Below the pieces are notes generated by a model that saw only the letters and a program-made list of their open reading frames with translations, was not told where the DNA came from and did no database searches. The translations under genes and the position numbers were made by a program. From a candidate division WOR-3 bacterium UBA2202 (GTDB lineage Bacteria > Hydrothermota > 32-111), in contig DCUY01000104.1 of assembly GCA_002327905.1 (NCBI GenBank), positions 7,904 through 71,903 of the forward strand: a stretch of 64,000 bases of DNA, in the 5' to 3' direction. Of this stretch, positions 17,145-36,981 are shown one piece after another (positions within the stretch are counted from its first letter, which is position 1; every line of letters starts with the position of its first letter).

Positions 17145-17176
17145 GAGCGGAATAAATCAATTAATTTATTCCGCTC
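17145..17176. terminator. Perfect 13-bp inverted repeat hairpin between the two T9SS cargo genes
   Basis: GAGCGGAATAAAT-caatta-ATTTATTCCGCTC, lying downstream of the 17195 stop on the minus strand. Flanks are A/T-rich. Confidence 0.4.
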
Positions 17177-17194
17177 TCATTAATTAGTGTTTTG

Positions 17195-20185: not shown

Positions 20186-20188
20186 AAT

Positions 20189-20217
20189 ATTATAGTAAAT
20201 TTATTTTACCTTGTCAA
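20189..20217 (-). promoter_or_regulatory. Sigma70-type promoter for the T9SS cargo gene
   Basis: Minus strand: TTGACAAGG (20217..20212) - 17 nt - TATAAT (20194..20189). Confidence 0.5.
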
Positions 20218-20245
20218 CTGTATTGAAGTCCTTTCATAATTCTGG

Positions 20246-22114
20246 TTACCGTGGACACACACTAAACCAGTCGAAGGATGAATTCTCATTTTCAGAGAAT
20301 GTCATGATATATTGATTCTTTTCAGATACGGTAATAAATTCTCCTTTTGAAGGACTAAAGAGTATTCTGCTCTTTTCAATCACATTTCCCAAAGAATCAA
20401 TTGTTGACAATTTCACTGTGATTCCATCTGATTTTTGAACTCTTTTATCAGGAAAGAATACTATCTCAAAGGTGTCATCCGCCTCTGCATTAAAAATCAG
20501 AGTGTCATCCAAATAGGATGGAATGACTATTTTTCCGTTCCAAAAAACAACTCTGTCAATATATTTCAGAATGTGCGGATTTGCTTTCTCTCTATATTCA
20601 TATTTGAAGCATTTTATCGAATACTCATTTGAAATCGAAAACGGAAGTATCCCGTACATTGATGTGTAATATCCGGATTTCCCCTCTTTTGACAACAGCT
20701 TCACAGGAAAATTAAAGAGGGACTCTGCTTCAATCAATTTAAGATGCAAAGCAAGATATGAAATGTCAGTCATATTCTCTATAAGAGAGACATACAAAAT
20801 ATCCGATTCCTTCATTTTCGAACTCTTCAACAAAAACGGTTCTGCCCGACTCTTCTCTGCCACAGTTCTAAATCCCCATTCTCCCAAGAAGTATTCTTTT
20901 GCATCAGATGAACAGTTTTCTTTGCTGTCAAACTGCAATTTGCTATAACTGTTCGTTTGTATTAAATCGCTTGTCAGAAGAAGAGATGTCAGGAGTAAAC
21001 TTGAAAATATGCCGAATGAAAGAAACTTCAGTCCGTTGTCTTTGAAGAGTATTATTGCCAAAATAATGAAATATGCAAAGAGGTACCTTCCTATAACCAT
21101 AGGAAAGAATAAGACTATAGCGGCTCCTGTTCCGGCTGTTAGAAGAAGCATTGCCTTTCTCTCTCTGCTTTGAAACATTGACGAACATGCGTTAATTCCT
21201 GAAAAGAGAAGAAGGAAGAGAGTGACTTTCGAAAAAGGATTTCCCGCTGAAGATGAATATGCAAAATAGAGTATTAAAGTCAGTAGAAGAGAGACAATTC
21301 TGAATTTGATTCCGCCTTTAACTTTTTTGAAAACCTCAGGAAAAGCAAACAGACCTGTTAAAACCAGAAGAGCAAGAAATTTCTCAAATGTCTTATGGTA
21401 ATTGAATATTTTTTCAGACCCGTACCATTTTATCGACCTGAACAAAGTGGGGGCAAGCTGATAATGGTTCAATAAGAGAATCACAAGCAGAGTGAAAACG
21501 AACAAGAGTGCAAGAAGAAACATATTCTTTTTATCCCTGCTCTTTTCAAATGCCAAAAAGCAGATAGGAAAAAGAATAAAAGAGACATAAGAGAAGAGAA
21601 GAGAGAGAATTGAAAAAACTGAGAATAATATAAAATTAAAGATTCTTCCGTCTTCGTAAAATCTGATTAAAAAATAAATTCCGAAGATCATAAGAACAAA
21701 AGCGGGTATATCAGCCATGAATGAATTGGCATAGACTCCTATAGCAGGAGAAAAAAGAATAAGAGCAGTGACAGCAAGAGGATGCTTCGTTTTGAAATAC
21801 TTCAGTATTGCCTCAAGAGGAAAGAGCATTGATGCAAATAGCATGTAAATAAATATATGGACAAATCTGTGCGAAAAATTCAGTCTCTCAAGGAGAGCAT
21901 AAAAAAGTATCGGCACAATGGAATGCGTCCCGTCCGTTATTTTTACTGTCTCTCCGTGAAAAGGCCAGTCTCTGTCAAGAAATGCCCTTACCCCGTTTTC
22001 AGAGATGAATTTTCCGTTGCCAATATAAATAATATCATCATAATTCATCTCCCTACTTGAGAATATGCAAAAAAAGGATATAATAAACAGAAATAATAAA
22101 AACCGTTTGACCAT
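20246..22114 (-). CDS. Polytopic membrane protein, GT-C-fold glycosyltransferase-like (ArnT/PMT-like) with C-terminal soluble domain
   Basis: About 12 predicted hydrophobic helices in the first 400 aa, then a roughly 220-aa soluble C-terminal domain; 622 aa. Family assignment is by architecture only. Confidence 0.4.
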   Translation of the reverse strand: MVKRFLLFLFIISFFCIFSSREMNYDDIIYIGNGKFISENGVRAFLDRDWPFHGETVKITDGTHSIVPILFYALLERLNFSHRFVHIFIYMLFASMLFPLEAILKYFKTKHPLAVTALILFSPAIGVYANSFMADIPAFVLMIFGIYFLIRFYEDGRIFNFILFSVFSILSLLFSYVSFILFPICFLAFEKSRDKKNMFLLALLFVFTLLVILLLNHYQLAPTLFRSIKWYGSEKIFNYHKTFEKFLALLVLTGLFAFPEVFKKVKGGIKFRIVSLLLTLILYFAYSSSAGNPFSKVTLFLLLFSGINACSSMFQSRERKAMLLLTAGTGAAIVLFFPMVIGRYLFAYFIILAIILFKDNGLKFLSFGIFSSLLLTSLLLTSDLIQTNSYSKLQFDSKENCSSDAKEYFLGEWGFRTVAEKSRAEPFLLKSSKMKESDILYVSLIENMTDISYLALHLKLIEAESLFNFPVKLLSKEGKSGYYTSMYGILPFSISNEYSIKCFKYEYREKANPHILKYIDRVVFWNGKIVIPSYLDDTLIFNAEADDTFEIVFFPDKRVQKSDGITVKLSTIDSLGNVIEKSRILFSPSKGEFITVSEKNQYIMTFSENENSSFDWFSVCPR

Positions 22115-26066: not shown

Positions 26067-27191
26067 ATGAAGAAACTTGATATATTGCTTGTCTCTGACC
26101 CTTATTATCCTTACCCTTCGGGAATCTCCGAATATACATTTTATCTGGCAAAATACCTGAGGAAATTCGGAAATAATGTAACTGTGCTGACAACACATTA
26201 CAAAAACGAAATTGAAGATGACCATGTTATCAGATTCGGAAGAGTTCTGATGATTCCAATGAACAGGTCATACGCGACAATGTCTTTCGGGCTTGATATA
26301 CCTGCGAAGGTGAAGAATCTGCTTCATAATAATCATTATGATATAATTCATCTTAACGGACCCTTTCCTCCGTCAATTTCATTCTTTGCACTTCATTATT
26401 CAAAATCAGTCAATATATCCGCATTCCTCAATGCCGGATTCTCTTTCAATTCTACAGGGGCATCAATTGCAAAATTCCTGTACGGGAAATATCTGAAAAA
26501 AATAGATGGGCTTTTTGCCATATCTGAAACGGCAAAGAAGGCTATGGAGCCGTATTTTCCCGGAGAGTATGCGATTATTCCCGCAGGAGTGGATACTGAA
26601 GTCTTCAATCCGGATGTTAAAGAAAGAAATGATTTGAGAGAGGGATACCCGAGAGTTCTCTTTCTCGGACGGCTTGACGAAAGAAAAGGCGTGATTGTAA
26701 TGATAAATGCTTTCAAGAGTCTTTTGAAATTAAAACCCAAGGCACAGCTTGTTATAGCTGGAAAGGGACCTCTTGACAATGAAGCGCGCAATTTGGCAAA
26801 GCACTTGAAAATAGAGGACTCTGTCGAATTCAAAGGATTCATTCCTTTCGGAGAGATTCCGTCATACTATAAATCTACGGACATTTACTGCTCACCGGCT
26901 TTGGGCGGAGAGTCATTCGGAATAGTTCTTCTTGAGGCAATGGCAACAGGAACTCCGGTTATTGCATCAAACATCCACGGATACTCTCAGGTTGTCAAAG
27001 ATAATGAAAACGGGTTATTGTTTGAAACAGGAAATGAAGATGACATTGTGAAAAAGATAATTCAGATTGCAGACAATAAAGAATTGAGGGATAAGTGCAT
27101 AAAAAACGGTTTCATTCTTGCAGACAAATACTCATGGGAGAATGTGGCAAAACAGATTGAATCCTTCTATATATCCCGCCTTAAAAGGTAA
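26067..27191 (+). CDS. Glycosyltransferase family 4 (GT-B)
   Basis: GGESFGIVLLEAMATGTPVIASNIHGYSQVVKDNENGLLFE, an EX7E-type GT4 motif. Likely start is MKKLDILLVSDPYYPYPSGISEY at 26067. Confidence 0.8.
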   Translation: MKKLDILLVSDPYYPYPSGISEYTFYLAKYLRKFGNNVTVLTTHYKNEIEDDHVIRFGRVLMIPMNRSYATMSFGLDIPAKVKNLLHNNHYDIIHLNGPFPPSISFFALHYSKSVNISAFLNAGFSFNSTGASIAKFLYGKYLKKIDGLFAISETAKKAMEPYFPGEYAIIPAGVDTEVFNPDVKERNDLREGYPRVLFLGRLDERKGVIVMINAFKSLLKLKPKAQLVIAGKGPLDNEARNLAKHLKIEDSVEFKGFIPFGEIPSYYKSTDIYCSPALGGESFGIVLLEAMATGTPVIASNIHGYSQVVKDNENGLLFETGNEDDIVKKIIQIADNKELRDKCIKNGFILADKYSWENVAKQIESFYISRLKR

Positions 27192-27253
27192 ATACTATTC
27201 AAAATTTTATCGAAAACTGCTGACTATATAAGGCCCATTCAATTTGATGCATT

Positions 27254-27754
27254 TTAATGTTTTGCATTCGCAAGCATTTTTAGGGTATCATAATAACCAA
27301 AATATTTCTTTTCAAATTCTTCATAATCTTTTTTCTCAGTAATCCATATAATTGTGTAATATTCTTTTGCTCCGCTCCTCACCAATGCTTCAAATCTGTG
27401 GTTACCGTCATTTAGTTCAAATGTGTCATCGTAATACCCGATTATCAGAGGCGGAACATCCCATCCCTCTTCTATATCATTCTGCATCCTTGCCACTTTT
27501 TTTTCAAAACTTTCTGTATCAGTGCGAAATCTCATGTTCTCTTCAGTCCCGCAACACCTTTTAAAAAGATTTAGCGGCATCTTTACAGGATACATATAAT
27601 ATCTGTGTGTCAATTTTAAGCCCTTTGAGAATCCTTCATTACTCCCCTCACCCAAAAGAAATTCATGTATCCATTCTTCCAACTGTCCTTTATCCGCTCT
27701 CTCTATAGCATCCTTCAATGAAAACTCTTTCTGCATTTCTCTTCTCCTGACCAT
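27254..27754 (-). CDS. ParB/sulfiredoxin-like nuclease-domain protein
   Basis: ELNDGNHRFEA (DGxHR ParB N-terminal motif); 166 aa. First gene of the AT-rich island. Confidence 0.5.
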   Translation of the reverse strand: MVRRREMQKEFSLKDAIERADKGQLEEWIHEFLLGEGSNEGFSKGLKLTHRYYMYPVKMPLNLFKRCCGTEENMRFRTDTESFEKKVARMQNDIEEGWDVPPLIIGYYDDTFELNDGNHRFEALVRSGAKEYYTIIWITEKKDYEEFEKKYFGYYDTLKMLANAKH

Positions 27755-27862
27755 TATATAATGCGCATCTTGGAATATTACGAAACAATTTAAATAGTAA
27801 AAAAGTAAAGCGCCGAGATAACAGTTTTTTCATTTCGCTATGCGAAATACGACCTATTTATT

Positions 27863-28537
27863 TTATGGCTTCCTCATTATAAACAAATATTTAAAACCTC
27901 TTAAATAAAAATTAAACTGCCTTGCTCTGTTGTGCCAAACTCCCGTGTTTGACGTTTGATTGTGTCTTGTTAAACAAACAATATCCATTGGCTCAAAATG
28001 TTTTTCCAATCTTTGCCACATCAAAAATCCAACAGCCGTAAATTTCTTTTTAATCCATTGATCGGCAATAACCCAGCCCATAACTTTTCCGGGTTTCAAA
28101 ATTCTTGCAATTTCGGAAGCGGTCTTTTCCAATTCATCATAAAATTCTGTTTTCTCGCAAGAAATTTTACCGATACATTCCTTGTTGTCAGAATAGTTGA
28201 TATTGTCGGAGTATGGCGAATCAATAAAAACAAAATCAACAGAATTGTCCGCAAGCGGGATTTTCCGAGAATCGTTTTTAATTACATCGGGTCTAACAAT
28301 ATTCAAATCATAACCGATTACTTTTCGGTTCAATTCTTTTGCAACATCAATCGTTGTTCCGCTCCCGCACATCGGATCGACAACTAAATCACCTTCTTTG
28401 GTATATCTTTGGAGTAAATTCCAAATGACAAAAGCCGGCGTTACGCCATTGTATTTATTGTTTCCATGTGGCTTGTCGCCATAATTTTGTCTCGGAAAAT
28501 CCCAAAGTGTTGTTGATTCAATAATCAAGTCAGACAT
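27863..28537 (-). CDS. DNA (amino) methyltransferase, N6-adenine/N4-cytosine type, small
   Basis: DPMCGSGTT (motif I, FxGxG-like) followed by FVFIDSPYSD (motif IV, D/S-PP-Y-like); 224 aa. Confidence 0.7.
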   Translation of the reverse strand: MSDLIIESTTLWDFPRQNYGDKPHGNNKYNGVTPAFVIWNLLQRYTKEGDLVVDPMCGSGTTIDVAKELNRKVIGYDLNIVRPDVIKNDSRKIPLADNSVDFVFIDSPYSDNINYSDNKECIGKISCEKTEFYDELEKTASEIARILKPGKVMGWVIADQWIKKKFTAVGFLMWQRLEKHFEPMDIVCLTRHNQTSNTGVWHNRARQFNFYLRGFKYLFIMRKP

Positions 28538-28763
28538 ATTTTTTCATCTGCATGCGATAAAAATTTATAGTCTTTTTATAAACCATTTCATTGAAGACGG
28601 CGTTTTCGTCAGCTTCAATTTTATCCAATAAAACTTGGGCATATAATAGTAAATCACCAAGTTGTGATATGTTTTTATTTTTCAGTCGCCAGCCGAGTTT
28701 CGATCTTTCATGCGTTTCGCAGATTATTTTTCCCCATGCTTTTTGCAATTGTTTTTTAGTCAT
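28530..28763 (-). CDS. Hypothetical small protein within R-M locus
   Basis: 77-aa ORF packed between the MTase and REase remnants; no recognisable motif. Confidence 0.3.
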   Translation of the reverse strand: MTKKQLQKAWGKIICETHERSKLGWRLKNKNISQLGDLLLYAQVLLDKIEADENAVFNEMVYKKTINFYRMQMKKYV

Positions 28764-28768
28764 ATTTT

Positions 28769-29438
28769 TTATTTTAATAATTTTTTCAAATCATCAATAA
28801 ATTTATCAAACATTTTTACTTTGTCGCTTTCTTCAATGTCGGTCTCGCTCAAAACATAACTTCCGTCTGTGTCAACTTCAACAATTGCTCTGCCTTTCTT
28901 TGCAGGTCTTTTAACTGTTAGTGTCCCATCCTCATCAGGCGTTACAAAATAAACTTTGATATGCTTTGTCGCTTCGTCAGAGGCAAGTTTAATTTTCCAA
29001 TATCCCGTTTGTGCAATTCTTTCCCGCAAAGTTACTTTGCTTGATAAAACAGCAACAACTTTGCTTGTTTTTTGGATCATAAATAATCAAATCAACATCT
29101 GGCAAATGCGAGCCAAACTCGCCATAATCAATAAGTAAATTTCTTTTAACTATACTCAATTCTTTTGAAAGGTTTGATCCATTCGTCCTTTCAAGGCTGT
29201 TGCCATTTACTACTTGCAAGCCGAGGGCATTAACCTCGTCCGTTATGATGTATTCAATCAATTTCTCTAAATTTTTACCTTTGAAAGCGCGCCATGATTG
29301 CTCGTGGTCTTTGCCGGTAAAATCTTTTTTGTGCAATTCCTTTGCTTCTTTCAAAACATTTGAAATATGGCGATATGCTTGCAGTCCATATTTTTTCTTT
29401 TTTGTTTCGTAGATTTTGATAAGGTCGTCTATAGTCAT
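28769..29438 (-). pseudogene. Frameshifted Type II restriction endonuclease candidate (two overlapping ORFs, 28989..29438 and 28769..29080)
   Basis: The frame switches at an A-rich run (ccaaaaaacaagcaaag, about 29065..29080). The fused reading gives ...GSHLPDVDLIIYDPKNKQ|VVAVLSSKVTLRER..., resembling a PD-(D/E)xK core. The position between two MTases and a C-protein is typical for the REase. Confidence 0.45.
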
Positions 29439-29442
29439 AGTT

Positions 29443-30714
29443 TTATTTTTCCATTATCAAAATGTATTCTGTTGGATAAACAGAAACTCTATTTTTATTA
29501 TTTATGCTCGCAAATTTACCCGTCTTTTCGTCTCGAACGGACGGCAAATTTTTTGATGGGATTTCTCTTTTGATAATATCGGCGATTTTTAATCCCAAAT
29601 TTTGTAATTGCTCAACAAAAACCTCCGCATTAAGTATTTCAACGCCTTTTAAGCTCGTATTGCCAATAACAATGCAGGCTTTCCCACCTTTCTTTAATAT
29701 TCTTTTCATCTCACTAAACACTTGATTCATTTCACTAAAATATGTCGAAACTTCCTCGGCAGTTTTTTTATCTTTTTTTAGCAATTCTGTTCTGATATTT
29801 TCTGCAATCAAACTGTTGAGAAATAAATCTTTTTTACAATGATACGAAGTTCCAATAAAACGTTTTCGAAAATCACTTAAGTCATTAGTGTATTCTAACC
29901 ACAATGCAGTGAGCTGGTGTAAGTCGGCGTATTCGTAAGAGGTTACATAAGGAGGCGAAGTGACAATCAAACTAACGCTATTATCTTTTGCCGGAATTGT
30001 TCTTGCATCCGTGCAAATTACCTTGCTCGGAATTTTCAAATAACCTTTTTCTGATAACAATTCAAATAATCGTGCGTTGCCTCGCAACATCATTTTTATT
30101 TGTTTCAAAAATGTTTTAATCGGCTCCGATGGTTTTTTTTCAAAATCTCTCGTCGGTTTATTGCTTTTTTGTAGCCAGATTGAGCAATTTTTGAGAATGT
30201 TTGAAAATCCGCAGAAAAAGAAATCTTGGACATCTTGATCTTTTATTTTTGAAATCTCAGCAAAAATAAAGGCGAGTTTTCTTTTTTCTTCTGGCCTAAA
30301 CCAATAGTCAATTCTTTCGTGTTCGGGGGTTTTTACTTTTGTTTTTTCGCTGTAAGCTTCCAATTTCTTTTGAAAAATTGTAAATTCCTTTTCAATTTTA
30401 ACAGGATCAATCGCCGTGATTTTTGCTTTTGTAATTAAAACAGCGACTGGGTTAATATCAACGGCAATTGATGGCCGTCCCATAATTTTTGATTCAACAA
30501 GAGTTGTTCCGCAACCGCCGAACGGATCAACAATAAAATCACCTGCTCGTGTATATTTTTCCACCAAGCGAGAAACTATTTGCGGAATAAATTTTGCTGG
30601 ATAACGATGATAACCATGCGTAATATATGCCGTATCTTTCCTCGTTTTATCAGAAAACGCCCACGAGGGATCGATTTTTGTTTTATTCAATAATGAAGTA
30701 ATAGTCAGACTCAT
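29443..30714 (-). CDS. DNA (amino) methyltransferase, alpha-class architecture
   Basis: HRYPAKFIPQIV...DFIVDPFGGCGTT (AdoMet motif I) near the N-terminus; LIVTSPPYVTSYEY (motif IV, SPPY) about 180 aa later; 423 aa. Confidence 0.8.
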   Translation of the reverse strand: MSLTITSLLNKTKIDPSWAFSDKTRKDTAYITHGYHRYPAKFIPQIVSRLVEKYTRAGDFIVDPFGGCGTTLVESKIMGRPSIAVDINPVAVLITKAKITAIDPVKIEKEFTIFQKKLEAYSEKTKVKTPEHERIDYWFRPEEKRKLAFIFAEISKIKDQDVQDFFFCGFSNILKNCSIWLQKSNKPTRDFEKKPSEPIKTFLKQIKMMLRGNARLFELLSEKGYLKIPSKVICTDARTIPAKDNSVSLIVTSPPYVTSYEYADLHQLTALWLEYTNDLSDFRKRFIGTSYHCKKDLFLNSLIAENIRTELLKKDKKTAEEVSTYFSEMNQVFSEMKRILKKGGKACIVIGNTSLKGVEILNAEVFVEQLQNLGLKIADIIKREIPSKNLPSVRDEKTGKFASINNKNRVSVYPTEYILIMEK

Positions 30715-30716
30715 AT

Positions 30717-30935
30717 TTATTTTTTGATTAAGTCGTTCACTTTTACATCTAATGCTTGGGCAATTTTTGTTAGTGTTTCAAAAGTTGGATTTGGATTCAA
30801 GCTATATTCTACTGTAACAATAGTATTCAGCGACAAATCAGCCAGCTTGGACAAACGATTCTGAAAAATACCTTTTTTCTGCCTTACCTTTTTAAGGTTT
30901 TTTCCTATTGTTGATTTAGAATTATTGTTTGACAT
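30717..30935 (-). CDS. XRE-family HTH protein (R-M controller C-protein candidate)
   Basis: 72 aa; LSKLADLSLNTIVTVEYSLNPNPTFETLTKIAQALDV helix-turn-helix. First gene of the R-M operon behind a strong promoter. Confidence 0.65.
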   Translation of the reverse strand: MSNNNSKSTIGKNLKKVRQKKGIFQNRLSKLADLSLNTIVTVEYSLNPNPTFETLTKIAQALDVKVNDLIKK

Positions 30936-30960
30936 AGTTTTAATTAAAATATATTATTAT

Positions 30961-30989
30961 ATTGTATTGGATAATGGCTCCCTTGTCAA
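30961..30989 (-). promoter_or_regulatory. Sigma70-type promoter of the C-protein/MTase operon
   Basis: Minus strand: TCTTGACAAGGGA (-35 at 30989..30984) - 17 nt - TACAAT (30966..30961). Confidence 0.5.
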
Positions 30990-31135
30990 GACACAAGATT
31001 GGCTTTCTATACTACCAACGCTGTCGAATCCTTCAACTCAGTCCTCGAACACATTCGCCGGCAAAAGGGCAGATTCTTTCAATCCGAAGACATCTTCTTC
31101 ATCAATATTTACATCCGTTATCTGAATATGTTGCC

Positions 31136-31807
31136 TTAATGGAAAATCGGTGTAGTAAATGAAATATCACTTCCATAATTTGTTCCCGAACTGTTTGTCG
31201 CCACTATAATGTAATGATATGTAACACCAGAAGTAAGTTCAGTTAAACTAAAATTAACTGACACTGTATCTATTCCACTGCCAACTGACGTGTTCGTTGT
31301 TATGTTCCCATAATTCGTTGTCATTCCCCACATAAAACAATATGTAGTTGACAATCCATTCGGATTAACTGTCCCGTTTAATTGAGCAGTGCTTGTTGTA
31401 ACATGCGTCGCTGATTGAGTTGTCACTGTTGGTGGAACTGCTACAGTTGTAAATGTAAGAGCCTCTCCATAACTTATTCCAACACTGTTTTCTGCAACTA
31501 AACGATACTGATATGTAGTGCTTGGACTTAAGGAAGATATAATACTCATAACATCTATCTCTTCAGAACCAGAACCAGCGGATTCTTTTTCAGTAGAAAA
31601 TGAATAATCTGATATGCCATATATGCCATATTCAAAATGGTACAGAGTTGCCAGCTCGTTTGGATTTACCCTCCCATGTAAAATTGAGCTATTTGAAGTA
31701 ATTGAAGTGGCTGATTCTGATACTACAGTTGGTGCAATTTTCGTTGTTGTAGTACAAGAAATTAAAATTAAAGCTATAACAAAAATAACAATTCCTTTTC
31801 TTTTCAT
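31136..31807 (-). CDS. Lipoprotein with two tandem fibronectin-III-like roughly 95-aa repeats
   Basis: Lipobox ALILISC. Internal duplication: SATSITSNSSILHGRVNPNELATLYHFEYG...TTYQYRLVAENSVGISYGEALTFTT versus SATHVTTSTAQLNGTVNPNGLSTTYCFMWG...VTYHYIIVATNSSGTNYGSDISFTT. Confidence 0.6.
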   Translation of the reverse strand: MKRKGIVIFVIALILISCTTTTKIAPTVVSESATSITSNSSILHGRVNPNELATLYHFEYGIYGISDYSFSTEKESAGSGSEEIDVMSIISSLSPSTTYQYRLVAENSVGISYGEALTFTTVAVPPTVTTQSATHVTTSTAQLNGTVNPNGLSTTYCFMWGMTTNYGNITTNTSVGSGIDTVSVNFSLTELTSGVTYHYIIVATNSSGTNYGSDISFTTPIFH

Positions 31808-31859
31808 AGTTTCTCCTTTTTTTAAATTAAATTTAATACTTTTTCTTTTATTTGATTAA

Positions 31860-31888
31860 ATTATATGAGATGATGAATCCCTTGTCAA
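31860..31888 (-). promoter_or_regulatory. Sigma70-type promoter of the lipoprotein gene
   Basis: Minus strand: TCTTGACAAGGGA (-35 at 31888..31883) - 17 nt - TATAAT (31865..31860). SD AGGAG at 31813..31817. The 22-bp block around the -35 is a near-exact copy of the block at 30975..30996. Confidence 0.55.
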
Positions 31889-31919
31889 GACTCAAGATTT
31901 TGAAAAAATGTGTAAATTG

Positions 31920-32290
31920 TTAAGCTGTATGAGTATTTGTGATACCTCCATAAACTTCAGATAAAGTCCTGTATCCCAATGACTGATGTTTTCTTCTGTT
32001 GTTATAGTATCCAAAGTAATCTTTTAACCCTCTTCTAAGCTCTTTAATAGTATCAAACCTCCCGTATTCCACAGATAGTTTCTGCAATGTCTTCTCATCA
32101 CTTATCGCCTCCAACGCCACCCTGTCTTAAACTCTGAACCGTGTCTCTTGTAATTCATTTCCGACCTCCTTTTTTAACATATTCTATCACTAAATCGTGT
32201 CTCATTTCGAGAGACCATTATATTAATCAATTCATCTTTAGTCATTTTCCTCAAATCCGAATATGATTTTGACATAGAGATACTCCTTTA
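31920..32290 (-). mobile_element. IS3-family insertion sequence remnant (transposase C-terminal fragment plus possible OrfA N-terminal fragment)
   Basis: The 66-aa ORF ends ...LKDYFGYYNNRRKHQSLGYRTLSEVY, the conserved C-terminal tail of IS3/rve-family OrfB. A 34-aa ORF at 32182..32286 (MSKSYSDLRKMTKDELINIMV...) may be an OrfA remnant. No intact transposase is present. Confidence 0.5.
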
Positions 32291-32324
32291 TCTATTATGT
32301 TTAACTAAAATCTAAATTCTCTGA

Positions 32325-33065
32325 TTACTTTCCGATATAGGAATAAATTGGTTCCGATTTCACCGGATAATCGTTATATATTTTCCCCTCAAGGAGTTTT
32401 CCGGTCTTATGCTTATTAAATCCACCCCATTGTTTAAAGAAAAATGGTATGCTCTCTTTTTCACTCATATCTCTTAGCTTCAAAACCCATTCTTCCTTTA
32501 TGGGTCTTGCGCCCGCCCCTGATTCTCCTCCAACGATAACCCAATCAATGCCCTTCAAGGATATCCGCCCTATGGGTCCAAGAAGGGGTTCAAAAGATAT
32601 AAATTTGATTTTTGAATCTATCTCTTTCAATTCTTTTATGCGATATACATATTCATTCATTTCAACAGTTACACCCATCCAAATATTGTCAGACCAATTT
32701 AATTTATCATTTAATTCAAGCAATCTCTCAGAACGCTTTGTTAATATCTGAAACTGAATGTGCTTACAGTCATTCATAACATTGAAGACTTCTTTAATGT
32801 AGCTTAAAGGAATATCCTTGTGAAACAAATCGGACATCGAGTTTACAAAAACTCTTCTTGGAGATTTCCATGTATAAGGTGCTTTTAAAGCATTCCTTTG
32901 CAGTGTCACTTTAAATCCGTTTTTGTATTGTTTTACACCCATCCTTTGCAGACGAAAGGCGAACTTCTCGGCATAGCAGTTCATACATCCCGGACTGATT
33001 TTTGTGCAGCCCGTTACAGGATTCCAGCTCATCTCTGTCCATTCGATCTTAGTTTTTCCTGACAT
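32325..33065 (-). CDS. DUF5131 (phage Gp37/Gp68 family) three-Cys-motif protein
   Basis: N-terminus KTKIEWTEMSWNPVTGCTKISPGCMNCYA (CX6CX2C) as I recall it for PF07505; 246 aa. Confidence 0.6.
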   Translation of the reverse strand: MSGKTKIEWTEMSWNPVTGCTKISPGCMNCYAEKFAFRLQRMGVKQYKNGFKVTLQRNALKAPYTWKSPRRVFVNSMSDLFHKDIPLSYIKEVFNVMNDCKHIQFQILTKRSERLLELNDKLNWSDNIWMGVTVEMNEYVYRIKELKEIDSKIKFISFEPLLGPIGRISLKGIDWVIVGGESGAGARPIKEEWVLKLRDMSEKESIPFFFKQWGGFNKHKTGKLLEGKIYNDYPVKSEPIYSYIGK

Positions 33066-33932
33066 TTATCTCCTTTTTTCCATTCCATTTATCAAAGACT
33101 GTGCTATTGGTATTGCAGTTTTCGCACCTTTAGAATTACCCGCAGCAAAACATAATAAATAGATAGGACTATTTTTACTATTATAGAATATTTTGGGATT
33201 TTCTACAACCCCTGCAAATTCCTTTTTCAGTTTTCTGGATAAATATGTAATAACATTCTTATAATTGGTTCTTCCTATATTTTCAGTCTTTCCAAATAGA
33301 GTTTCTTCTTCCTCAATTTGATAGAATTCTTGTTCCCATTCATTGTCACCAAATAATTCATTCAGTTTTTTTCTGTTGCCCTCTTCAATTTCACCATCTT
33401 TTTTCAGAAGTCGCATAGCACCAATCCCTAGTGGGAAGAAATACCACATGTCAATTGCTTTTGTTTGTGCAATGGCTTTTATTGTTTCCCACTTAACCTG
33501 CATTCCAAAGGGATCAAGAAACAAAACCGCTCTATATTTTTTCCAATCATAATTATGGCAAATGTCCGTTACTGCTTTATTAGCATCATCTTTTTTTATT
33601 TCATAAGTTACAGAATATTTTTTCACTTCCAATTCCAATTCTTTACATAGTTCAGAATCATTTTCGATAAAAATATATTTATTGAATTTGGTTTCCAATT
33701 CAAGAGCTTTTATAACTGATCCTTTTGAGTATTCGGTAAACTCGTCATTGAATAGCAATTGCTCATCTGATTCACTATAAATTTTCCCACATCCAGCAAA
33801 AGCATCAATATAAATTGTTTCAAAATACTTAGCTCCTTCATTTGTGGTAAATATTTTCATATAGGTTTTTAAATATTTTTCAAGTATTTCAAGTTTTTGT
33901 TGAGTCCAATTTCCTCCCCATAACTGTTCCAT
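33066..33932 (-). CDS. Partner protein of the three-Cys-motif protein (TcmP-like, TIGR04474 candidate)
   Basis: Stop/start abuts the DUF5131 gene (33065/33066). N-terminus WTQQKLEILEKYLKTYMKIF...IYIDAFAGCGKI is MTase-motif-I-like; 288 aa. Assignment rests on gene pairing plus my recollection of the family. Confidence 0.4.
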   Translation of the reverse strand: MEQLWGGNWTQQKLEILEKYLKTYMKIFTTNEGAKYFETIYIDAFAGCGKIYSESDEQLLFNDEFTEYSKGSVIKALELETKFNKYIFIENDSELCKELELEVKKYSVTYEIKKDDANKAVTDICHNYDWKKYRAVLFLDPFGMQVKWETIKAIAQTKAIDMWYFFPLGIGAMRLLKKDGEIEEGNRKKLNELFGDNEWEQEFYQIEEEETLFGKTENIGRTNYKNVITYLSRKLKKEFAGVVENPKIFYNSKNSPIYLLCFAAGNSKGAKTAIPIAQSLINGMEKRR

Positions 33933-34168
33933 TTTGAAGCTCCTTAAATTAAAGATTTTTTCACTACACCCTCTTGGTCATGCATTTCAGAAAACAACCT
34001 TAAACTTCTGTTCCTTCGTCCATTCTCTGAGTACCATTTCCGCCTCCTATTTTTCCCCGCTCTCGTTAAGAAAATCTCGTTTTCCTTAACAGAAATTATA
34101 CTACTTTTCTTAACTCTTGTTAAGCGGACTCAGTATAATCAGTATAATTAGAGATCACCTCTAAATTT

Positions 34169-34684
34169 TCATTCATATAAGTAAACAAAAAAAATAGTGC
34201 CTAATATTATTAACACTGCAGTTCCATAAGATAGACTCTTAATGTATTCATCTCTCATTTCTTTTTTCTTTTCCAGTTCAGCCAATCTCTCATCTAATGC
34301 TTTCCTGACTGCCAAATTATTGATTGTTACTATTTTTCTATCTCCTTCAGCAATAAATATGTCATAAGTTCCTACCCGAATTATTTCATTTAGAGCATCT
34401 CTATTGAGAGTATTAAACACAATTTCATATTGAGGATTCAAATTTAAATACTCACGAAACAATTCTCTCTTAATGTCGTATGTTTTCCAATTAAACATGC
34501 TGATTGTATAAGTGCCTGTGCCTAAATTCTTCAATTTAATTGTATCTGAACTGATGATTTTTACTAAACCTTCATTAACAAAGATTGGGCAGGAATCATA
34601 GGGATCTTCCAGTTTAATCCATAATTCTGTTGAAAAAGCTAAATTTGATAATAAGATTATAGTACACGCAATAAACCACTTCAT
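34169..34684 (-). CDS. Hypothetical exported protein with C-terminal TM anchor
   Basis: N-terminal signal-like MKWFIACTIILLSNLAFS; C-terminal hydrophobic TAVLIILGTIFFVYLY. Confidence 0.35.
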   Translation of the reverse strand: MKWFIACTIILLSNLAFSTELWIKLEDPYDSCPIFVNEGLVKIISSDTIKLKNLGTGTYTISMFNWKTYDIKRELFREYLNLNPQYEIVFNTLNRDALNEIIRVGTYDIFIAEGDRKIVTINNLAVRKALDERLAELEKKKEMRDEYIKSLSYGTAVLIILGTIFFVYLYE

Positions 34685-35533
34685 TTATTTCTCCTTAATA
34701 ATTTCTGTTTCAATTTTGCCTATAAAGCTTGATGTTTCATTTTTCTCTGTCTTTATTTGATTATTTTCTTTTTTTGCTTTGGCATCTAATTTTCTCTTGT
34801 AAGATTTATTAAGTTTATTTATGGTTCTCTTTACTTTGCCGACCTTATCTCCTTCAAATATCTCCCTTTTTAGAACTTCATTAAGTAAAATATTCTTAAT
34901 TTCTTCATTTGTAACTTTTATCTCGGGCGACATTTTTCTGATGTTTTTCCTAATTACATTCAGGACATCATCAGTTAAAACTATTTGCCCGACAGAAAAT
35001 TTATTTAGAATCTTCTTTTGCATATGAAACTCCTCAAGACACGATTTTGACAGACTTTCTTTACATAAATAAAACAATAACTCCAAATCATCATCTTTTT
35101 TGTAATTCAATTTCAGTAAATCGATCTCATAGAGTAATTCATTGCTAACTGGCTGTCCAAAAGTAACTTTATAAATCTTCCAATTTATACCATTTGTTAA
35201 TATAATCCATTCTATTCCTGCATTTGCCCCATAGTCTAAAGCTTGTCTGATATGATCATTTTTCAGGTCCAATCCAATTGCTTTTGCTTCTACTAAAAAT
35301 TTCACTTTTCCATCAATTCTAAGCGCCAAATCACAAAATGTTTTTTTCACTGAGAATTCAGAAGTTATCTCTGAATATTTATCATAGCCTAATATTTCAT
35401 TCAAAATATCAGCTATTATAACAACAGTATCTGATTCATTAATATCTTTTGACTTTGCTGAAATTAAAATCGTTTGGAATTTCTTTACTCCCTCAATCAA
35501 TCTTTCTTTAATTTTAGCTGTTATCTTCGTCAT
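34685..35533 (-). CDS. PD-(D/E)xK nuclease-fold protein, HsdR_N-like (COG4748-like) standalone
   Basis: DLALRIDGKVKFLVEAKAIG (D...EAK) and QALDYGANAGIEWIILTNGINWKIY, reminiscent of the type I R-subunit N-terminal / Mrr-like nuclease domain; 282 aa. Confidence 0.4.
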   Translation of the reverse strand: MTKITAKIKERLIEGVKKFQTILISAKSKDINESDTVVIIADILNEILGYDKYSEITSEFSVKKTFCDLALRIDGKVKFLVEAKAIGLDLKNDHIRQALDYGANAGIEWIILTNGINWKIYKVTFGQPVSNELLYEIDLLKLNYKKDDDLELLFYLCKESLSKSCLEEFHMQKKILNKFSVGQIVLTDDVLNVIRKNIRKMSPEIKVTNEEIKNILLNEVLKREIFEGDKVGKVKRTINKLNKSYKRKLDAKAKKENNQIKTEKNETSSFIGKIETEIIKEK

Positions 35534-36212
35534 TTTCGACCTCCCTGTTTTCTTTTTGATTTTTTACGAACTTAACAATTATTCCTGCGAATTCTGCGGT
35601 CAACATTGAAAACAATCCCATACCGGTTAATACTAATATTGCCGCCATTATCCTGCCGCTAGTAGTAACCGGATAGATATCTCCATATCCAACTGTAGTG
35701 AGTGTTGTAAAACTCATCCATAAAGCATCTTCAAAACTATTCATTGAATTATTAAAACCCTTTTCAAATGTATACAAGCCCACACTACAATAGAAATAAA
35801 TAATTACTGTCAAACTTGCATAAATAGAAAAAAGCGATCTTGCAGGATTTGCCAATAGAATTCTCATTATTGGTAAAGCTCCTTTCAGACCTCTAATGAT
35901 TTTAAATGCTCTGAATATTCTGACAACTCTGAATATTCGTAAAGGCCTCAATAATTGCACATATGGAATTGATGATATCAAATCAAAAAAACGAGTTACT
36001 ATATAATTTTTTTTATCTTTTGCTTTAAACAGAAACAAAAACCAATCAGAAAGAAAAATAATACAAATTAGTAAGTCAATCCAATTTAAAATAGTAATAA
36101 TATTTTCAGGCACATTTAAAATGACTTCTAATACCAACTCTATAAGAACATAAACACTAAGGATTAAAATAAAATAATTATATTTTTTTAGAAAATTGTT
36201 TTTAATTTTCAT
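35514..36212 (-). CDS. Voltage-gated potassium channel (6TM Kv-like)
   Basis: Selectivity filter TTLTTVGYGDIYP; S4-like arginine ladder RPLRIFRVVRIFRAFKIIRGLK; 232 aa. Confidence 0.75.
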   Translation of the reverse strand: MKIKNNFLKKYNYFILILSVYVLIELVLEVILNVPENIITILNWIDLLICIIFLSDWFLFLFKAKDKKNYIVTRFFDLISSIPYVQLLRPLRIFRVVRIFRAFKIIRGLKGALPIMRILLANPARSLFSIYASLTVIIYFYCSVGLYTFEKGFNNSMNSFEDALWMSFTTLTTVGYGDIYPVTTSGRIMAAILVLTGMGLFSMLTAEFAGIIVKFVKNQKENREVENDEDNS

Positions 36213-36298
36213 ACACTTCTTTCCTCCATAATTGCTTATCCTTTTTTATAATTATATCCCTAAATAATTAAAAAATCAATATTCAAAGTTAAAAAACA

Positions 36299-36970
36299 TC
36301 AACGGATGAATAGCGTCAATCCACCCTGAATGCCATAAATGAAAGTTTCAGGTTTGCCTAAGTTGGTTCCTGCTTTTATAGTCAAATACGGCATAATATG
36401 AAGCCCTTTGAAAATTCTTATTTCAGTTGCAACTTGCCCTGCAAGGGATATCATTTTCAAATAATTGCTGTATTCATATCCGTTATCTACATAGTCAATA
36501 CCGAGTATGAGTCTTGATGTAATACCGCTTCTGCTACCGGGACTTGACGAGTAGTGATTTAATGAGGCGTAAAGACCTTTTGTGTCAATCCGAGATAATG
36601 AAATTTGCAAACCAATACTTGTTTGAGATATCTTGTTTTCATACATTTTTATTCTTTTTGTCACTCCTAAAGACAATTGCAGAGGATAATAATTAAAAAA
36701 TCCAACACCGATATTTGCATTGAATCCGTTTGCAAAACCGCACCTTAGAAAAGCATGCATTGGATTAATCCACGGATAAGTATAGAAAGCACCTTCAGAG
36801 GCTACGATTCCAATATTTGATCCGACAGCAAATTCACATTTATTTTTTTCAAGAGTCTTTGCTGAAAAATAATATTGAGAGCACCCTGCAGATATTATGG
36901 ATACTGCAAAAACAATTATTAAAATAATGCCTTTTTTTCTTAAATTCATCTTCCTGAAAAACATAAACAA
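36299..36970 (-). CDS. Lipoprotein / outer-membrane beta-barrel-like hypothetical protein
   Basis: Signal plus lipobox IISAGC; alternating amphipathic strands; C-terminal GGLTLFIR. Confidence 0.35.
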   Translation of the reverse strand: MFMFFRKMNLRKKGIILIIVFAVSIISAGCSQYYFSAKTLEKNKCEFAVGSNIGIVASEGAFYTYPWINPMHAFLRCGFANGFNANIGVGFFNYYPLQLSLGVTKRIKMYENKISQTSIGLQISLSRIDTKGLYASLNHYSSSPGSRSGITSRLILGIDYVDNGYEYSNYLKMISLAGQVATEIRIFKGLHIMPYLTIKAGTNLGKPETFIYGIQGGLTLFIR

Positions 36971-36981
36971 ATCATTACTCC

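What the first reader, a model, noticed from the sequence alone, without database searches (positions are those of the whole stretch)
27254..35533. AT-rich accessory island: orphaned R-M system, ParB-like nuclease, IS3 remnant, DUF5131/TcmP and HsdR_N-like nuclease
From just after the GT4 gene to the K+ channel gene the sequence is visibly more A/T-rich than the flanks. Every gene is of the mobile or defence type:
- ParB/Srx-like nuclease (DGNHR);
- small amino-MTase;
- 77-aa ORF;
- frameshifted REase;
- alpha-class amino-MTase;
- XRE-type C-protein candidate behind a consensus promoter;
- Fn3-repeat lipoprotein cassette flanked by a near-identical 22-bp block (tcccttgtcaagacNcaagatt at 30975..30996 and 31875..31896);
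- IS3 transposase fragments;
- DUF5131 and TcmP-like pair;
- hypothetical exported protein;
- PD-(D/E)xK HsdR_N-like protein.

No integrase or tRNA marks the borders, so this looks like an old, partly decayed defence island rather than a fresh integration.
Basis: partly seen in the sequence, partly recalled or inferred. Interest (0 to 1): 0.6.

Follow-up and report, generated by a model that had tools for sequence, protein, structure and literature searches.

The report
Mosaic defence island in WOR-3 bacterium

Summary
The A/T-rich block is real: GC is 0.330 against 0.384 for the rest of the window.

A related lineage (L109/L110, about 75% nt identity) has the GT4 gene and the 134-aa gene after HIT only 144 bp apart. 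The island is therefore window 27192-36981. The K+ channel gene and a lipoprotein gene lie inside it, not at its border.

It is a mosaic rather than one old insertion:
- The C-M-R-orf77-M operon is shared with a more distant MAG (L001) at dS 0.15-0.43 for most of its length. Flanking core genes show dS of 0.74 to saturated.
- The BsaWI-family REase carries a fixed +1 frameshift in an A6 run. The L001 copy is intact.
- The Fn3 lipoprotein gene is an 899-bp insertion at the end of an IS3 remnant.
- TcmP+DUF5131 is intact and matches the PADLOC candidate PDC-M41. A TcmP model has an RlmJ-like SAM methyltransferase fold.
- One strain (L009) lacks the 2.84-kb block of lipoprotein, K+ channel, HsdR_N-like nuclease and 171-aa gene.

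Verdict: an ordinary, still-changing defence/accessory island, a new member of a known kind. The one unexpected lead is that the HsdR_N-like family repeatedly sits next to K+ channel genes.

The parts
27192..36981 (.). Whole island: everything between the stop of the GT4 gene (27191) and the stop of the 134-aa membrane-protein gene (36982). These two genes are convergent.
   Evidence: In L109/L110 the two flanks are 144 bp apart. L109 1-2338 matches window 39353-37016, and L109 2483-3602 matches window 27148-26029. GC is 0.330 against 0.384.
27254..27754 (-). ParB N-terminal-domain-like protein, 166 aa. A separate module, not part of the R-M block.
   Evidence: No direct family hit. Homologues at 50-57% identity carry PF02195, and some are fused to Mor (PF08765). 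PPLI and DGNHR are invariant. Absent in L001, where similarity to the window starts at 27752.
27863..28537 (-). Small N4/N6 amino-methyltransferase, 224 aa, intact.
   Evidence: PF01555 1.2e-23; PADLOC MTase_II 3e-30. 98% aa identity and dS 0.15 to the L001 copy.
28530..28763 (-). orf77, a 77-aa ORF of unknown function inside the operon.
   Evidence: No hit in any library. L001 has an unrelated 363-aa ORF, also without hits, at exactly this position.
28769..29438 (-). BsaWI-family type II restriction endonuclease pseudogene. The +1 frameshift is in the run at 29068-29073 (T6 on the + strand, A6 in the gene).
   Evidence: PF18643 hits are split over two ORFs. Alignment to the intact 222-aa L001 gene shows CCAAAAAAC against CCAAACAC. 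Coordinates. The same split occurs in all same-species contigs.
29443..30714 (-). 423-aa amino-methyltransferase, intact. Motif I (DPFGGCG) comes before motif IV (SPPY), with about 195 aa between them.
   Evidence: PF01555 4e-22; PADLOC MTase_II 3e-59. dS 0.33 to L001.
30717..30935 (-). 72-aa XRE-type HTH, a candidate controller (C) protein and the first gene of the operon.
   Evidence: HTH_3 / HTH_26. PADLOC Control_protein 2e-7. Its stop is 2 bp before the MTase start.
30961..30989 (-). Promoter-like site TTGACA-17-TACAAT in front of the HTH gene. The -35 hexamer lies inside repeat copy 1.
   Evidence: 11 of 12 consensus match.
30950..31000 (+). Repeat copy 1. The 22-bp core is at 30979-31000.
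31001..31877 (.). Segment present in the window but absent in L001. It holds the Fn3 lipoprotein gene plus a 65-bp piece (31063-31127) that recurs, inverted, in L001. With one repeat copy it makes an 899-bp insertion.
   Evidence: L001 has a single repeat copy that joins the left flank of copy 1 to the right flank of copy 2.
31136..31807 (-). 223-aa lipoprotein with two weak Fn3-like repeats.
   Evidence: Fn3 families at E 5e-6 to 2e-3, all below their cut-offs. The lipobox LILISC can be read from the translation. The exact protein is found only in this context.
31849..31899 (+). Repeat copy 2 (core 31878-31899). On the - strand it carries a perfect TTGACA-17-TATAAT (31888-31860) in front of the lipoprotein gene.
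31885..32273 (-). Internally deleted IS3-family element. The ORF at 31920-32120 keeps only the last ~34 residues of the rve core. An OrfA-like N-terminus and TGTCAA...TTGACA ends were read by eye.
   Evidence: rve_3 6e-8. 81.6% nt identity to the IS3 scrap of L001. The ends and the OrfA part are my reading, not a tool result.
32325..33065 (-). DUF5131 (phage Gp37/Gp68 family) protein, 246 aa, with a C-x6-C-x2-C motif.
   Evidence: PF07505 2.5e-94; PADLOC PDC-M41B 2e-113; TIGR04471 1e-24, below cut-off; phrog_2045.
33066..33932 (-). TcmP (three-Cys-motif partner protein), 288 aa. RlmJ-like SAM methyltransferase fold.
34095..34123 (-). Promoter-like site TTAACA-17-TATAAT upstream of TcmP.
   Evidence: 11 of 12 consensus match. 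Retained in strain L009.
34138..36976 (.). 2.84-kb four-gene block that is absent in strain L009.
   Evidence: L009 joins window 36977 directly to 34137. The junction shows ACTCAGTATA / ACTCCTTATA microhomology.
34169..34684 (-). 171-aa protein with an N-terminal signal-like segment and a C-terminal hydrophobic anchor.
   Evidence: No family hit apart from a weak PHROG 'membrane protein' match. No homologue in the other HsdR_N-like loci.
34685..35533 (-). Stand-alone HsdR_N-like PD-(D/E)xK protein, 282 aa.
   Evidence: PF13588 2.8e-7. phrog_17239 3e-98. Family of 2262 hits with invariant D68, E82 and K84. The model gives weak matches to PD-(D/E)xK folds.
35514..36212 (-). 6-TM K+ channel, 232 aa. 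It overlaps the HsdR_N-like gene by 20 bp.
   Evidence: Ion_trans 1e-24; Ion_trans_2 4e-17. Absent from L109/L110 at this site and from strain L009.
36299..36970 (-). 223-aa putative lipoprotein (lipobox ISAGC). Rightmost gene of the island.
   Evidence: No family hit. GC 0.345. Absent in L009 and L109.

Best explanation
Window 27192-36981 is a 9.8-kb variable accessory/defence island. It has built up in the short spacer between two convergent core genes, GT4 and the 134-aa gene of the EndoQ-HIT-134aa operon, in a candidate-division WOR-3 bacterium. It is a patchwork of at least five modules with separate histories, not one inserted element.

1. A solitary ParB-N-domain-like gene.

2. One operon, C (HTH) - M423 - R (BsaWI family) - orf77 - M224. 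It is read from a hybrid promoter whose -35 box lies in the end of an IS3 scar. The REase is inactivated by a fixed +1 frameshift while both methylases are intact. The module should therefore now only methylate: two orphan methyltransferases, with no restriction and no post-segregational killing.

3. An Fn3-like lipoprotein gene that arrived as an 899-bp insertion at the IS3 end. The insertion duplicated the promoter-bearing junction.

4. An intact TcmP-DUF5131 pair, equal to the PADLOC candidate system PDC-M41. TcmP has an RlmJ-like SAM methyltransferase fold. DUF5131 is a three-Cys protein that SFLD lists under the radical-SAM superfamily. I infer that the pair modifies nucleic acid with SAM.

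5. A four-gene block of lipoprotein, K+ channel, stand-alone PD-(D/E)xK (HsdR_N-like) nuclease and a small membrane protein. This block is present or absent among near-identical strains.

SHOWN: the borders, the mosaic structure, the frameshift, the family memberships and the TcmP fold.
INFERRED: every biochemical activity, and the defence role of modules 4 and 5.
For: EMPTY SITE. L109 and L110 are independent ENA and JGI assemblies with EndoQ 70% aa identical to the window. In both, the 134-aa gene and GT4 are 144 bp apart.

COMPOSITION. GC is 0.330 against 0.384, and it steps at exactly these borders: GT4 0.393 then ParB-like 0.363; lipoprotein 0.345 then 134-aa gene 0.378.

SEPARATE HISTORIES.
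- L001 shares only window 27752-28522, 28769-31000 and 31857-32062. These are 91-92% nt identical, against 71-81% for core DNA.
- dS is 0.15 for M224, 0.33 for M423 and 0.43 for the REase N-terminal part. It is 0.74 for GT4, 1.43 for p121 and saturated for DnaJ.
- L001 lacks the ParB-like gene, the Fn3 segment, TcmP/DUF5131 and the K+ block.
- L009 lacks 34138-36976.

FRAMESHIFT.. It is present in all same-species contigs, which come from at least 8 samples.

PROMOTERS..

FAMILY ASSIGNMENTS..

TcmP FOLD..

DUF5131 AS A RADICAL-SAM SUBGROUP. It is listed as such in PMC9477430.
Against: - Polarity is not proven. L109 could have lost the block rather than the window lineage gained it. An R-M module also sits next to GT4 in the more distant L001, so part of the block could be older than the GT4/134-aa junction.
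- The REase C-terminal part has dS 0.89, like core genes, so the 'recently shared' signal is itself patchy.
- No integrase, tRNA, att-like repeats, or plasmid or phage DNA similarity identify a vehicle.
- No experimental evidence exists for defence by PDC-M41 or by the K+ channel/nuclease genes. No paper on them was found.
- There is no avoidance of WCCGGW in the window.
Confidence: 0.8

Rival explanations
1. One reading: a single, old, decaying defence island bounded by GT4 on the left and by a conserved K+ channel gene on the right (27254-35533).
For: Low GC, a frameshifted REase, an IS3 scrap, and no integrase or tRNA.
Against: - The K+ channel and the lipoprotein are absent from the empty site in L109/L110 and from strain L009.
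- GC is lowest beyond 35533.
- The modules differ widely in divergence from L001 and in presence among strains.
- TcmP, DUF5131, the HsdR_N-like gene and both MTases are full length.
Confidence: 0.07
2. The block is ancestral to this clade and was deleted in the L109/L110 lineage (and partly in L009). On this view it is differential loss rather than insertion, and the low GC reflects relaxed or function-specific composition.
For: - The R-M operon lies next to GT4 in L001 as well.
- The L009 junction has only imperfect microhomology, as expected for a deletion.
- No insertion signatures are visible at the outer borders.
Against: - In the two more distant MAGs, the operon ending in the 13x-aa gene is followed by HI0933-like and UbiA genes, and GT4 lies elsewhere. 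The GT4/134-aa junction is therefore young, and the block must post-date it or have moved with GT4.
- R-M dS is far below core dS.
- GC3 of 0.21-0.26 in five genes, against 0.38-0.50 in the flanks, is hard to explain without foreign origin.
Confidence: 0.12
3. It is the remnant of one integrated mobile element, such as a prophage, ICE or IME, whose integration and transfer genes have been lost.
For: DUF5131 and the HsdR_N-like family both have PHROG families. The HsdR_N-like family occurs on 55 IMG/VR contigs, and ParB-like homologues are sometimes fused to Mor.
Against: - No structural, replication, integrase or conjugation gene is present.
- No flanking direct repeats were found.
- There is no DNA similarity to 50,697 phage or 72,556 plasmid records beyond a ~100-bp DUF5131 motif.
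- The modules vary independently.
Confidence: 0.04

Closest known systems
Defence islands / defence hot spots between conserved core genes (as described for many bacteria; from general knowledge)
   Same: - Clustering of R-M, candidate defence pairs, IS scars and a solitary nuclease in a compositionally deviant stretch.
- Absent from the same site in a relative.
- Module-by-module turnover.
   Different: - No integrase or tRNA.
- The site is the 3'-3' spacer of two convergent genes.
- Several passengers (two lipoproteins, a K+ channel, a 171-aa membrane protein) are not known defence genes.
- The host is an uncultured WOR-3 lineage.
BsaWI-type type II R-M systems with a controller protein (Pfam PF18643 RE_BsaWI)
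   Same: C-M-R gene order, a REase of the BsaWI family, and an amino-MTase of the N6_N4 family.
   Different: - The REase is frameshifted.
- A second, small MTase and an unknown orf77 (a 363-aa ORF in L001) are appended to the operon.
- The recognition site is unknown, and WCCGGW is not avoided in the window.
- No C-box was identified.
PADLOC candidate system PDC-M41 (TcmP + DUF5131); NCBIfam TIGR04474 and TIGR04471 'mobile pair' families
   Same: Both proteins match full length (E 4e-103 and 2e-113). They are adjacent on the same strand with a 0-bp gap.
   Different: Nothing differs structurally. The system itself is only a candidate, and no functional study was found. New here: the TcmP model is closest to RlmJ-type methyltransferases, but it has DPFG where RlmJ has DPPY.
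HsdR N-terminal nuclease domain / Mrr-like stand-alone PD-(D/E)xK 'type IV restriction' proteins
   Same: PF13588 hit, a D...ExK triad, and weak fold matches to HsdR, Hjc, Cas4 and DrdV nuclease domains.
   Different: - No helicase or ATPase domain, and no HsdM/HsdS partners.
- It has a C-terminal helical half with no structural match and a Lys-rich tail.
- The family is unusually conserved, at 55-65% identity across phyla.
- In about 5% of loci it sits next to a K+ channel gene.
RexAB-type abortive infection (a sensor protein plus an ion-channel effector; from general knowledge)
   Same: This is only the idea behind the novel reading: a DNA-recognising protein encoded next to, and probably co-translated with, an ion channel.
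   Different: There is no sequence relationship and no experimental link. Most members of the nuclease family have no channel neighbour.

Membership tests
Genomic (defence) island | Absent from the orthologous site in a related genome | tested here: met
   In L109/L110, GT4 and the 134-aa gene are 144 bp apart.
Genomic (defence) island | Composition deviates from the host | tested here: met
   GC 0.330 against 0.384. GC3 is 0.21-0.39 inside and 0.38-0.50 in the flanking genes. Tetranucleotide distance is 0.29, against 0.12-0.21 for most 5-kb windows.
Genomic (defence) island | Integrase, tRNA target or flanking direct repeats | tested here: not met
   No tRNA. No integrase domain other than the rve_3 scrap. 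No border repeats.
Type II R-M system, BsaWI family | Uninterrupted REase ORF of the family | tested here: not met
   PF18643 is split over two ORFs, with a +1 frameshift at 29068-29073. The L001 copy is intact at 222 aa.
Type II R-M system, BsaWI family | Adjacent DNA methyltransferase with SAM-binding and catalytic motifs | tested here: met
   M423 has PF01555 and PADLOC MTase_II 3e-59, with DPFGGCG and SPPY. M224 has DPMCGSG and DSPY.
Type II R-M system, BsaWI family | Controller protein with its operator (C-box) | tested here: inconclusive
   The HTH matches PADLOC Control_protein at 2e-7. Only a short CTTGT/ACAAG inverted repeat overlapping the -35 box was seen, and there is no recognised C-box.
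Type II R-M system, BsaWI family | Recognition of and cleavage at W^CCGGW; matching methylation | not testable with these tools
   Site counts show no avoidance. Methylome data are needed.
PDC-M41 (TcmP + DUF5131) | TcmP family member | tested here: met
   TIGR04474 at 188.5 bits against a cut-off of 53. PDC-M41A 4e-103, full length.
PDC-M41 (TcmP + DUF5131) | DUF5131 member with the three-Cys motif, adjacent and on the same strand | tested here: met
   PF07505 at 315.8 bits. PDC-M41B 2e-113. C20-x6-C27-x2-C30 in the translation. 0-bp gap to TcmP.
PDC-M41 (TcmP + DUF5131) | Protection against phage | not testable with these tools
   It is only a PADLOC candidate. No paper was found.
ParB/Srx-fold (ParB N-terminal domain) proteins | Match to PF02195 (ParBc) | tested here: inconclusive
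   The window protein has no hit at E up to 0.01. Many homologues at 50-57% identity carry a precomputed PF02195 hit, and sources name them 'ParB-like nuclease domain-containing'.
ParB/Srx-fold (ParB N-terminal domain) proteins | Conserved PPL(I/V) ... DG(N/H)HR core | tested here: met
   P101, P102, L103, I104 and D116-G-N-H-R120 are invariant in 27 sequences.
ParB/Srx-fold (ParB N-terminal domain) proteins | Nuclease (or CTPase) activity | not testable with these tools
   No structure or assay exists. PDB sequence hits were spurious monobody matches.
IS3 family insertion sequence | Complete OrfA/OrfB with a DDE (rve) core | tested here: not met
   Only residues 19-52 of a 66-aa ORF match the last part of rve_3. 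The element is about 390 bp long.
Type I restriction enzyme R subunit (HsdR) | N-terminal PD-(D/E)xK nuclease domain | tested here: met
   PF13588 at 31.1 bits against a cut-off of 25. D68, E82 and K84 are invariant.
Type I restriction enzyme R subunit (HsdR) | SF2 helicase/translocase domains and HsdM/HsdS partners | tested here: not met
   The protein is 282 aa with no such domain, and there are no hsdM or hsdS genes in the island. It is therefore not an HsdR.

The most novel reading that the evidence does not exclude
The K+ channel gene and the HsdR_N-like PD-(D/E)xK gene, which overlap by 20 bp here, may form an undescribed two-gene sensor-effector module, perhaps together with the 171-aa membrane protein. 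In this reading a DNA-recognising nuclease-fold protein gates or is coupled to a potassium channel, giving a RexAB-like abortive response.

Support:
- In 123 distinct loci of this nuclease family, 6 of 205 directly adjacent genes are K+ channels, against 0 of 717 non-adjacent genes (Fisher p = 1e-4).
- A further Thermoanaerobacteraceae group of loci has a 2-TM channel upstream.
- The channels are only 24-54% identical to one another, so the pairings are not one inherited locus.
- In most cases the channel lies upstream on the same strand, 30-100 bp away.
- One strain lacks the whole block.

Neither protein matches any PADLOC model.
Probability: 0.12. Interest if true: 0.6.

Novelty: new member of a known kind. 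Interest (0 to 1): 0.3.

Why it matters
As given, the finding adds one more defence/accessory island to the catalogue, this time in a little-studied uncultured phylum (WOR-3). It shows such islands forming in a 144-bp spacer between convergent genes without any integrase.

It has some practical value:
- It documents a natural case of an R-M system being converted into two orphan methylases.
- It gives the first fold-level assignment, as far as I could find, for TcmP as an RlmJ-like SAM methyltransferase. That makes the untested PDC-M41 candidate system easier to approach biochemically.
- It yields a testable lead that a very widespread stand-alone PD-(D/E)xK family is linked to K+ channels.

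None of this overturns current views.

Tried and rejected
- PDB sequence search with the ParB-like protein gave only spurious monobody/fibronectin hits at E of 0.04 or worse. They were discarded.
- PDB sequence searches with TcmP, DUF5131 and the HsdR_N-like profile found nothing usable. Only the TcmP profile gave weak RsmD/RlmJ hits, later confirmed by fold comparison.
- Foldseek of the HsdR_N-like model gave only weak hits (best E 1.5e-3). They suffice for 'PD-(D/E)xK core' but say nothing about the C-terminal half.
- blastn of 7.8 kb of the island against phage and plasmid collections found only a ~100-bp DUF5131 motif.
- PADLOC, Pfam and PHROG gave nothing for orf77, the 171-aa protein, the 223-aa lipoprotein, or the 363-aa ORF of L001.
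- WCCGGW/CCGG site-avoidance as a way to infer the R-M specificity gave no signal within the CCGG context.
- Literature searches for DUF5131, TcmP, PDC-M41, PF13588 and K+ channel plus phage defence returned no functional study. The first search was swamped by unrelated 'TCMP' acronyms.
- Looking for fused domains in longer TcmP relatives found none.
- ParB-like homologues were checked for linkage to methylases. The two contexts examined had none.
- A dif/attC-like reading of the 22-bp repeat was considered and dropped. The repeat coincides with the end of an IS3 remnant plus a promoter, and L001 has the single-copy ancestral-type junction.
- An IS256-like reading of the L001 79-aa ORF next to the inverted 65-bp piece is my impression only. 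Pfam gave no hit.
- Rfam and tRNA scans of the whole window were empty.

Full report
**1. What is in the sequence**

All genes between 27.2 and 37.4 kb lie on the minus strand.

- 27863-28537: a small N6_N4 amino-MTase.
- 28769-29438: two overlapping ORFs that each match part of PF18643 (RE_BsaWI).
- 29443-30714: a 423-aa MTase.
- 30717-30935: an XRE-type HTH that also matches PADLOC's 'control protein'.
- 31136-31807: a lipoprotein with sub-threshold Fn3 hits.
- 31920-32120: the last ~34 residues of an rve_3 transposase core.
- 32325-33065: DUF5131.
- 33066-33932: TcmP (TIGR04474).
- 34685-35533: an HSDR_N_2 protein.
- 35514-36212: an Ion_trans K+ channel.

The 'ParB-like' gene (27254-27754) has no direct hit in Pfam, NCBIfam, PHROGs or PDB. 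Its homologues at 50-57% identity carry PF02195 and are named ParB-like by their sources. PPLI and DGNHR are invariant in the family. The label is therefore reasonable, but the nuclease activity is not shown.

The 22-bp repeat is real. It lies at 30979-31000 and 31878-31899, with none expected by chance, and it extends to 51 nt at 80% identity.

The window holds no tRNA and no Rfam family.

**2. Composition**

No 1-kb window inside exceeds 0.353, while windows outside average 0.385 ± 0.028.

The HsdR_N-like gene (0.285), the K+ channel gene (0.289) and the next lipoprotein gene (0.345) are all low. GC recovers at the 134-aa gene (0.378) and the HIT gene (0.385).

**3. Organism and relatives**

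The neighbouring 387-aa protein is an endonuclease Q family protein. Its 99%-identical database entry is assigned to a 'candidate division WOR-3 bacterium'.

About two dozen contigs at 99.4-100% identity from JGI, ENA and Logan cover parts of the region.

More distant relatives:
- L109 and L110: EndoQ 70% aa identical, flanks about 75% nt identical.
- The MAG JBFXGO01 (L001 and L111): EndoQ 61%.
- The MAG JAQVDU01 (L002 and L113): EndoQ 59%.

**4. The island and its true borders**

In L109, and independently in L110, the order is EndoQ-HIT-134aa followed directly by GT4 on the opposite strand. L109 1-2338 aligns to window 39353-37016, and L109 2483-3602 aligns to window 27148-26029. So 144 bp there correspond to 9.87 kb here.

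It supports an island, but with the 134-aa gene as the right neighbour rather than the K+ channel gene.

In the two more distant MAGs, the gene corresponding to the 134-aa gene is followed by HI0933-like and UbiA genes, and GT4 lies on another contig. The GT4/134-aa junction is therefore itself a young rearrangement. Whether the block was gained in the window lineage or lost in L109 cannot be strictly decided. Composition and the points below favour gain.

**5. It is a mosaic**

*(a) The R-M operon.* L001 carries, about 2 kb downstream of its GT4 gene and beyond ABC-transporter fragments, the same operon at 91-92% nt identity (window 27752-28522 and 28769-31000). Surrounding core DNA is only 71-81% identical.
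- Synonymous divergence is 0.15 for M224, 0.33 for M423 and 0.43 for the REase N-terminal part.
- It is 0.74 for GT4, 1.43 for p121 and saturated for DnaJ.
- The REase C-terminal part is 0.89, so the tract is patchy.
- GT4 itself is 94% aa identical to L001 but only 79% identical to the otherwise closer L109. This suggests that it was partly carried along in the exchange.

*(b) The ParB-like gene.* L001 has ABC-transporter fragments where the window has the ParB-like gene.

*(c) orf77.* Inside the operon, L001 has a 363-aa ORF with no family hit where the window has orf77.

*(d) The Fn3 segment.* L001 has one copy of the repeat. That copy joins the left flank of window copy 1 to the right flank of window copy 2. 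So 31001-31899, which holds the Fn3 lipoprotein gene, is an 899-bp insertion in the window lineage.
- On the minus strand, the two copies read TTGACA-17-TACAAT before the HTH gene and TTGACA-17-TATAAT before the lipoprotein gene.
- The TTGACA is, by my reading of the sequence, the terminal TGTCAA of an internally deleted IS3 element (31885-32273). This element keeps an OrfA-like start and the OrfB C-terminus.
- Same-species assemblies repeatedly break at 30918-31065 and 31962-32447, as expected at IS scars.

*(e) The K+ channel block.* Contig L009 is 99.4-99.7% identical to the window and joins window 36977 directly to 34137. It lacks the lipoprotein, K+ channel, HsdR_N-like and 171-aa genes. 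The junction shows only ACTCAGTATA / ACTCCTTATA microhomology.

**6. State of the R-M module**

The REase is split by one extra A in an A6 run: CCAAAAAAC against CCAAACAC in L001. On the plus strand this is T6 at 29068-29073.

The same split into 149-aa and 86-aa ORFs is called in every same-species contig that covers it, from at least eight samples. It is therefore fixed and is not a sequencing error. No intact allele was seen, so phase variation is unsupported.

Both MTases are full length with motif I and motif IV. Gene spacing of -8 to +5 bp indicates one operon, C-M-R-orf77-M.

I infer a methylation-only module. The specificity is unknown, and counts of NCCGGN sites show no avoidance.

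**7. TcmP-DUF5131**

Both proteins match PADLOC's candidate system PDC-M41 full length, at 4e-103 and 2e-113. The genes abut, and a promoter-like site lies upstream.

I found no functional paper. DUF5131 is listed as a subgroup of the radical-SAM superfamily in PMC9477430.

The TcmP family is large, with 2667 clusters at 50% identity.
- A 30-sequence profile gives only weak PDB hits, nearly all RsmD or RlmJ-type methylases.
- By Foldseek, the model gives 202 hits at E up to 1e-3, and the 50 listed are nearly all SAM-dependent methyltransferases.
- The motifs YIDAFAGCG and FLDPFG align with the SAM-binding motif and the (D/N)PP(Y/F) motif.

I infer a SAM-dependent nucleic-acid-modifying pair. 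Substrate and role are untested.

**8. The HsdR_N-like protein and the K+ channel**

The 282-aa protein belongs to a very large family of 2262 hits, 255-270 aa long. Members are 55-65% identical across Bacteroidota, Clostridia and Leptospira, and D68, E82 and K84 are invariant. It matches phrog_17239 full length and occurs on 55 IMG/VR contigs.

Its model (pLDDT 78) matches PD-(D/E)xK domains only weakly: DrdV, Hjc, Cas4 and HsdR. It lacks any helicase domain, so it is not an HsdR.

In the window it overlaps the K+ channel gene by 20 bp. Among the related loci examined:
- Five of the 48 metagenome loci with enough upstream sequence have a 6-TM K+ channel directly upstream on the same strand.
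- One locus has a channel directly downstream, and one viral contig has a convergent one.
- A Thermoanaerobacteraceae group of loci has a 2-TM channel upstream.
- In 123 de-duplicated loci, 6 of 205 adjacent genes are K+ channels, against 0 of 717 other genes (p = 1e-4).
- The channels are only 24-54% identical to each other.

This is an association and not a demonstrated system. Most family members are solitary.

**9. Comparison and verdict**

The locus behaves like a classical defence island or hot spot: absent in a relative, compositionally foreign, modular, and full of R-M, candidate defence and IS remains. It lacks integrase, tRNA and att features, and it shows no relation to known phages or plasmids.

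- The right border is 1.4 kb too short.
- The island is not simply old and decaying. It is a site of continuing exchange.
- Not every gene is a defence or mobility gene.

Novelty: a new member of a known kind. Interest is low to moderate. Two leads seem worth keeping: the RlmJ-like fold of TcmP and the K+ channel linkage of the stand-alone nuclease family.

Noticed in passing
window 34685-36212; loci L066, L074, L075/L079, L096, L101, L158, L021-L023: The stand-alone HsdR_N-like PD-(D/E)xK family recurrently sits next to K+ channel genes. Six of 205 adjacent genes are channels, against 0 of 717 non-adjacent genes (p = 1e-4). The channels are only 24-54% identical to each other. In the window the two genes overlap by 20 bp. 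Neither protein matches a PADLOC model.
   Followed up: partly
window 34138-36976 vs L009 (Logan SRR28219344): A strain 99.4-99.7% identical to the window lacks this 2.84-kb four-gene block. The junction has only imperfect 10-bp microhomology. A 9-bp tandem duplication, CAGTATAAT-CAGTATAAT, lies at the left junction in the window.
   Followed up: partly
[not shown]
   Followed up: yes
window 15494-20258: A second low-GC stretch (0.34-0.35) is missing from the otherwise syntenic L001. It encodes two large proteins with T9SS C-terminal sorting domains: one of 501 aa with FG-GAP repeats, and one of 996 aa. It is probably another variable surface-protein island.
   Followed up: partly
window 59664-64000: A third low-GC stretch (0.32-0.36) holds a HipA N-terminal-domain ORF, a 501-aa radical SAM protein and an MMPL-family protein. 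It was not compared with relatives.
   Followed up: no
L001 13982-15073: A 363-aa ORF with no hit in Pfam, PADLOC or PHROGs sits inside the R-M operon of L001, exactly where the window has orf77. It could be the lost partner nuclease of the small methylase, or an inserted passenger.
   Followed up: partly
L001 15750-17342: In L001 the HTH (C-protein) reading frame runs into the 423-aa methylase without a stop, giving a 530-aa ORF. The HTH part also carries several non-conservative changes, so control of the intact L001 system may differ.
   Followed up: no
window 26067-27191 (GT4): GT4 is 94% aa identical to the L001 copy but only 79% identical to the copy in L109. By EndoQ and flanking DNA, however, L109 is the closer relative. 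GT4 may have been co-transferred with the adjacent R-M operon. It also scores above the cut-off for PF20706 (GT4 in conflict systems), although generic GT4 families score far higher.
   Followed up: partly
window 31063-31127 and L001 18065-18129: A 65-bp piece downstream of the Fn3 gene recurs at 81.5% identity, inverted, about 0.7 kb beyond the IS3 scrap in L001. There it lies next to a 79-aa ORF that looks to me like a transposase N-terminus, although Pfam gives no hit. It is probably another IS scar. Several assemblies break at exactly this point.
   Followed up: partly
whole window: Strong avoidance of some 4-bp palindromes. Observed/expected is 0.13 for ACGT, 0.11 for CTAG, 0.35 for GATC and 0.38 for GGCC; CCGG is only 0.62. 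This suggests long-term exposure to R-M systems with specificities other than the one in the island.
   Followed up: no
window 33046-33093: A weak 22-bp tandem repeat (2.1 copies, 76% matches) spans the TcmP/DUF5131 gene junction. It is probably chance.
   Followed up: no
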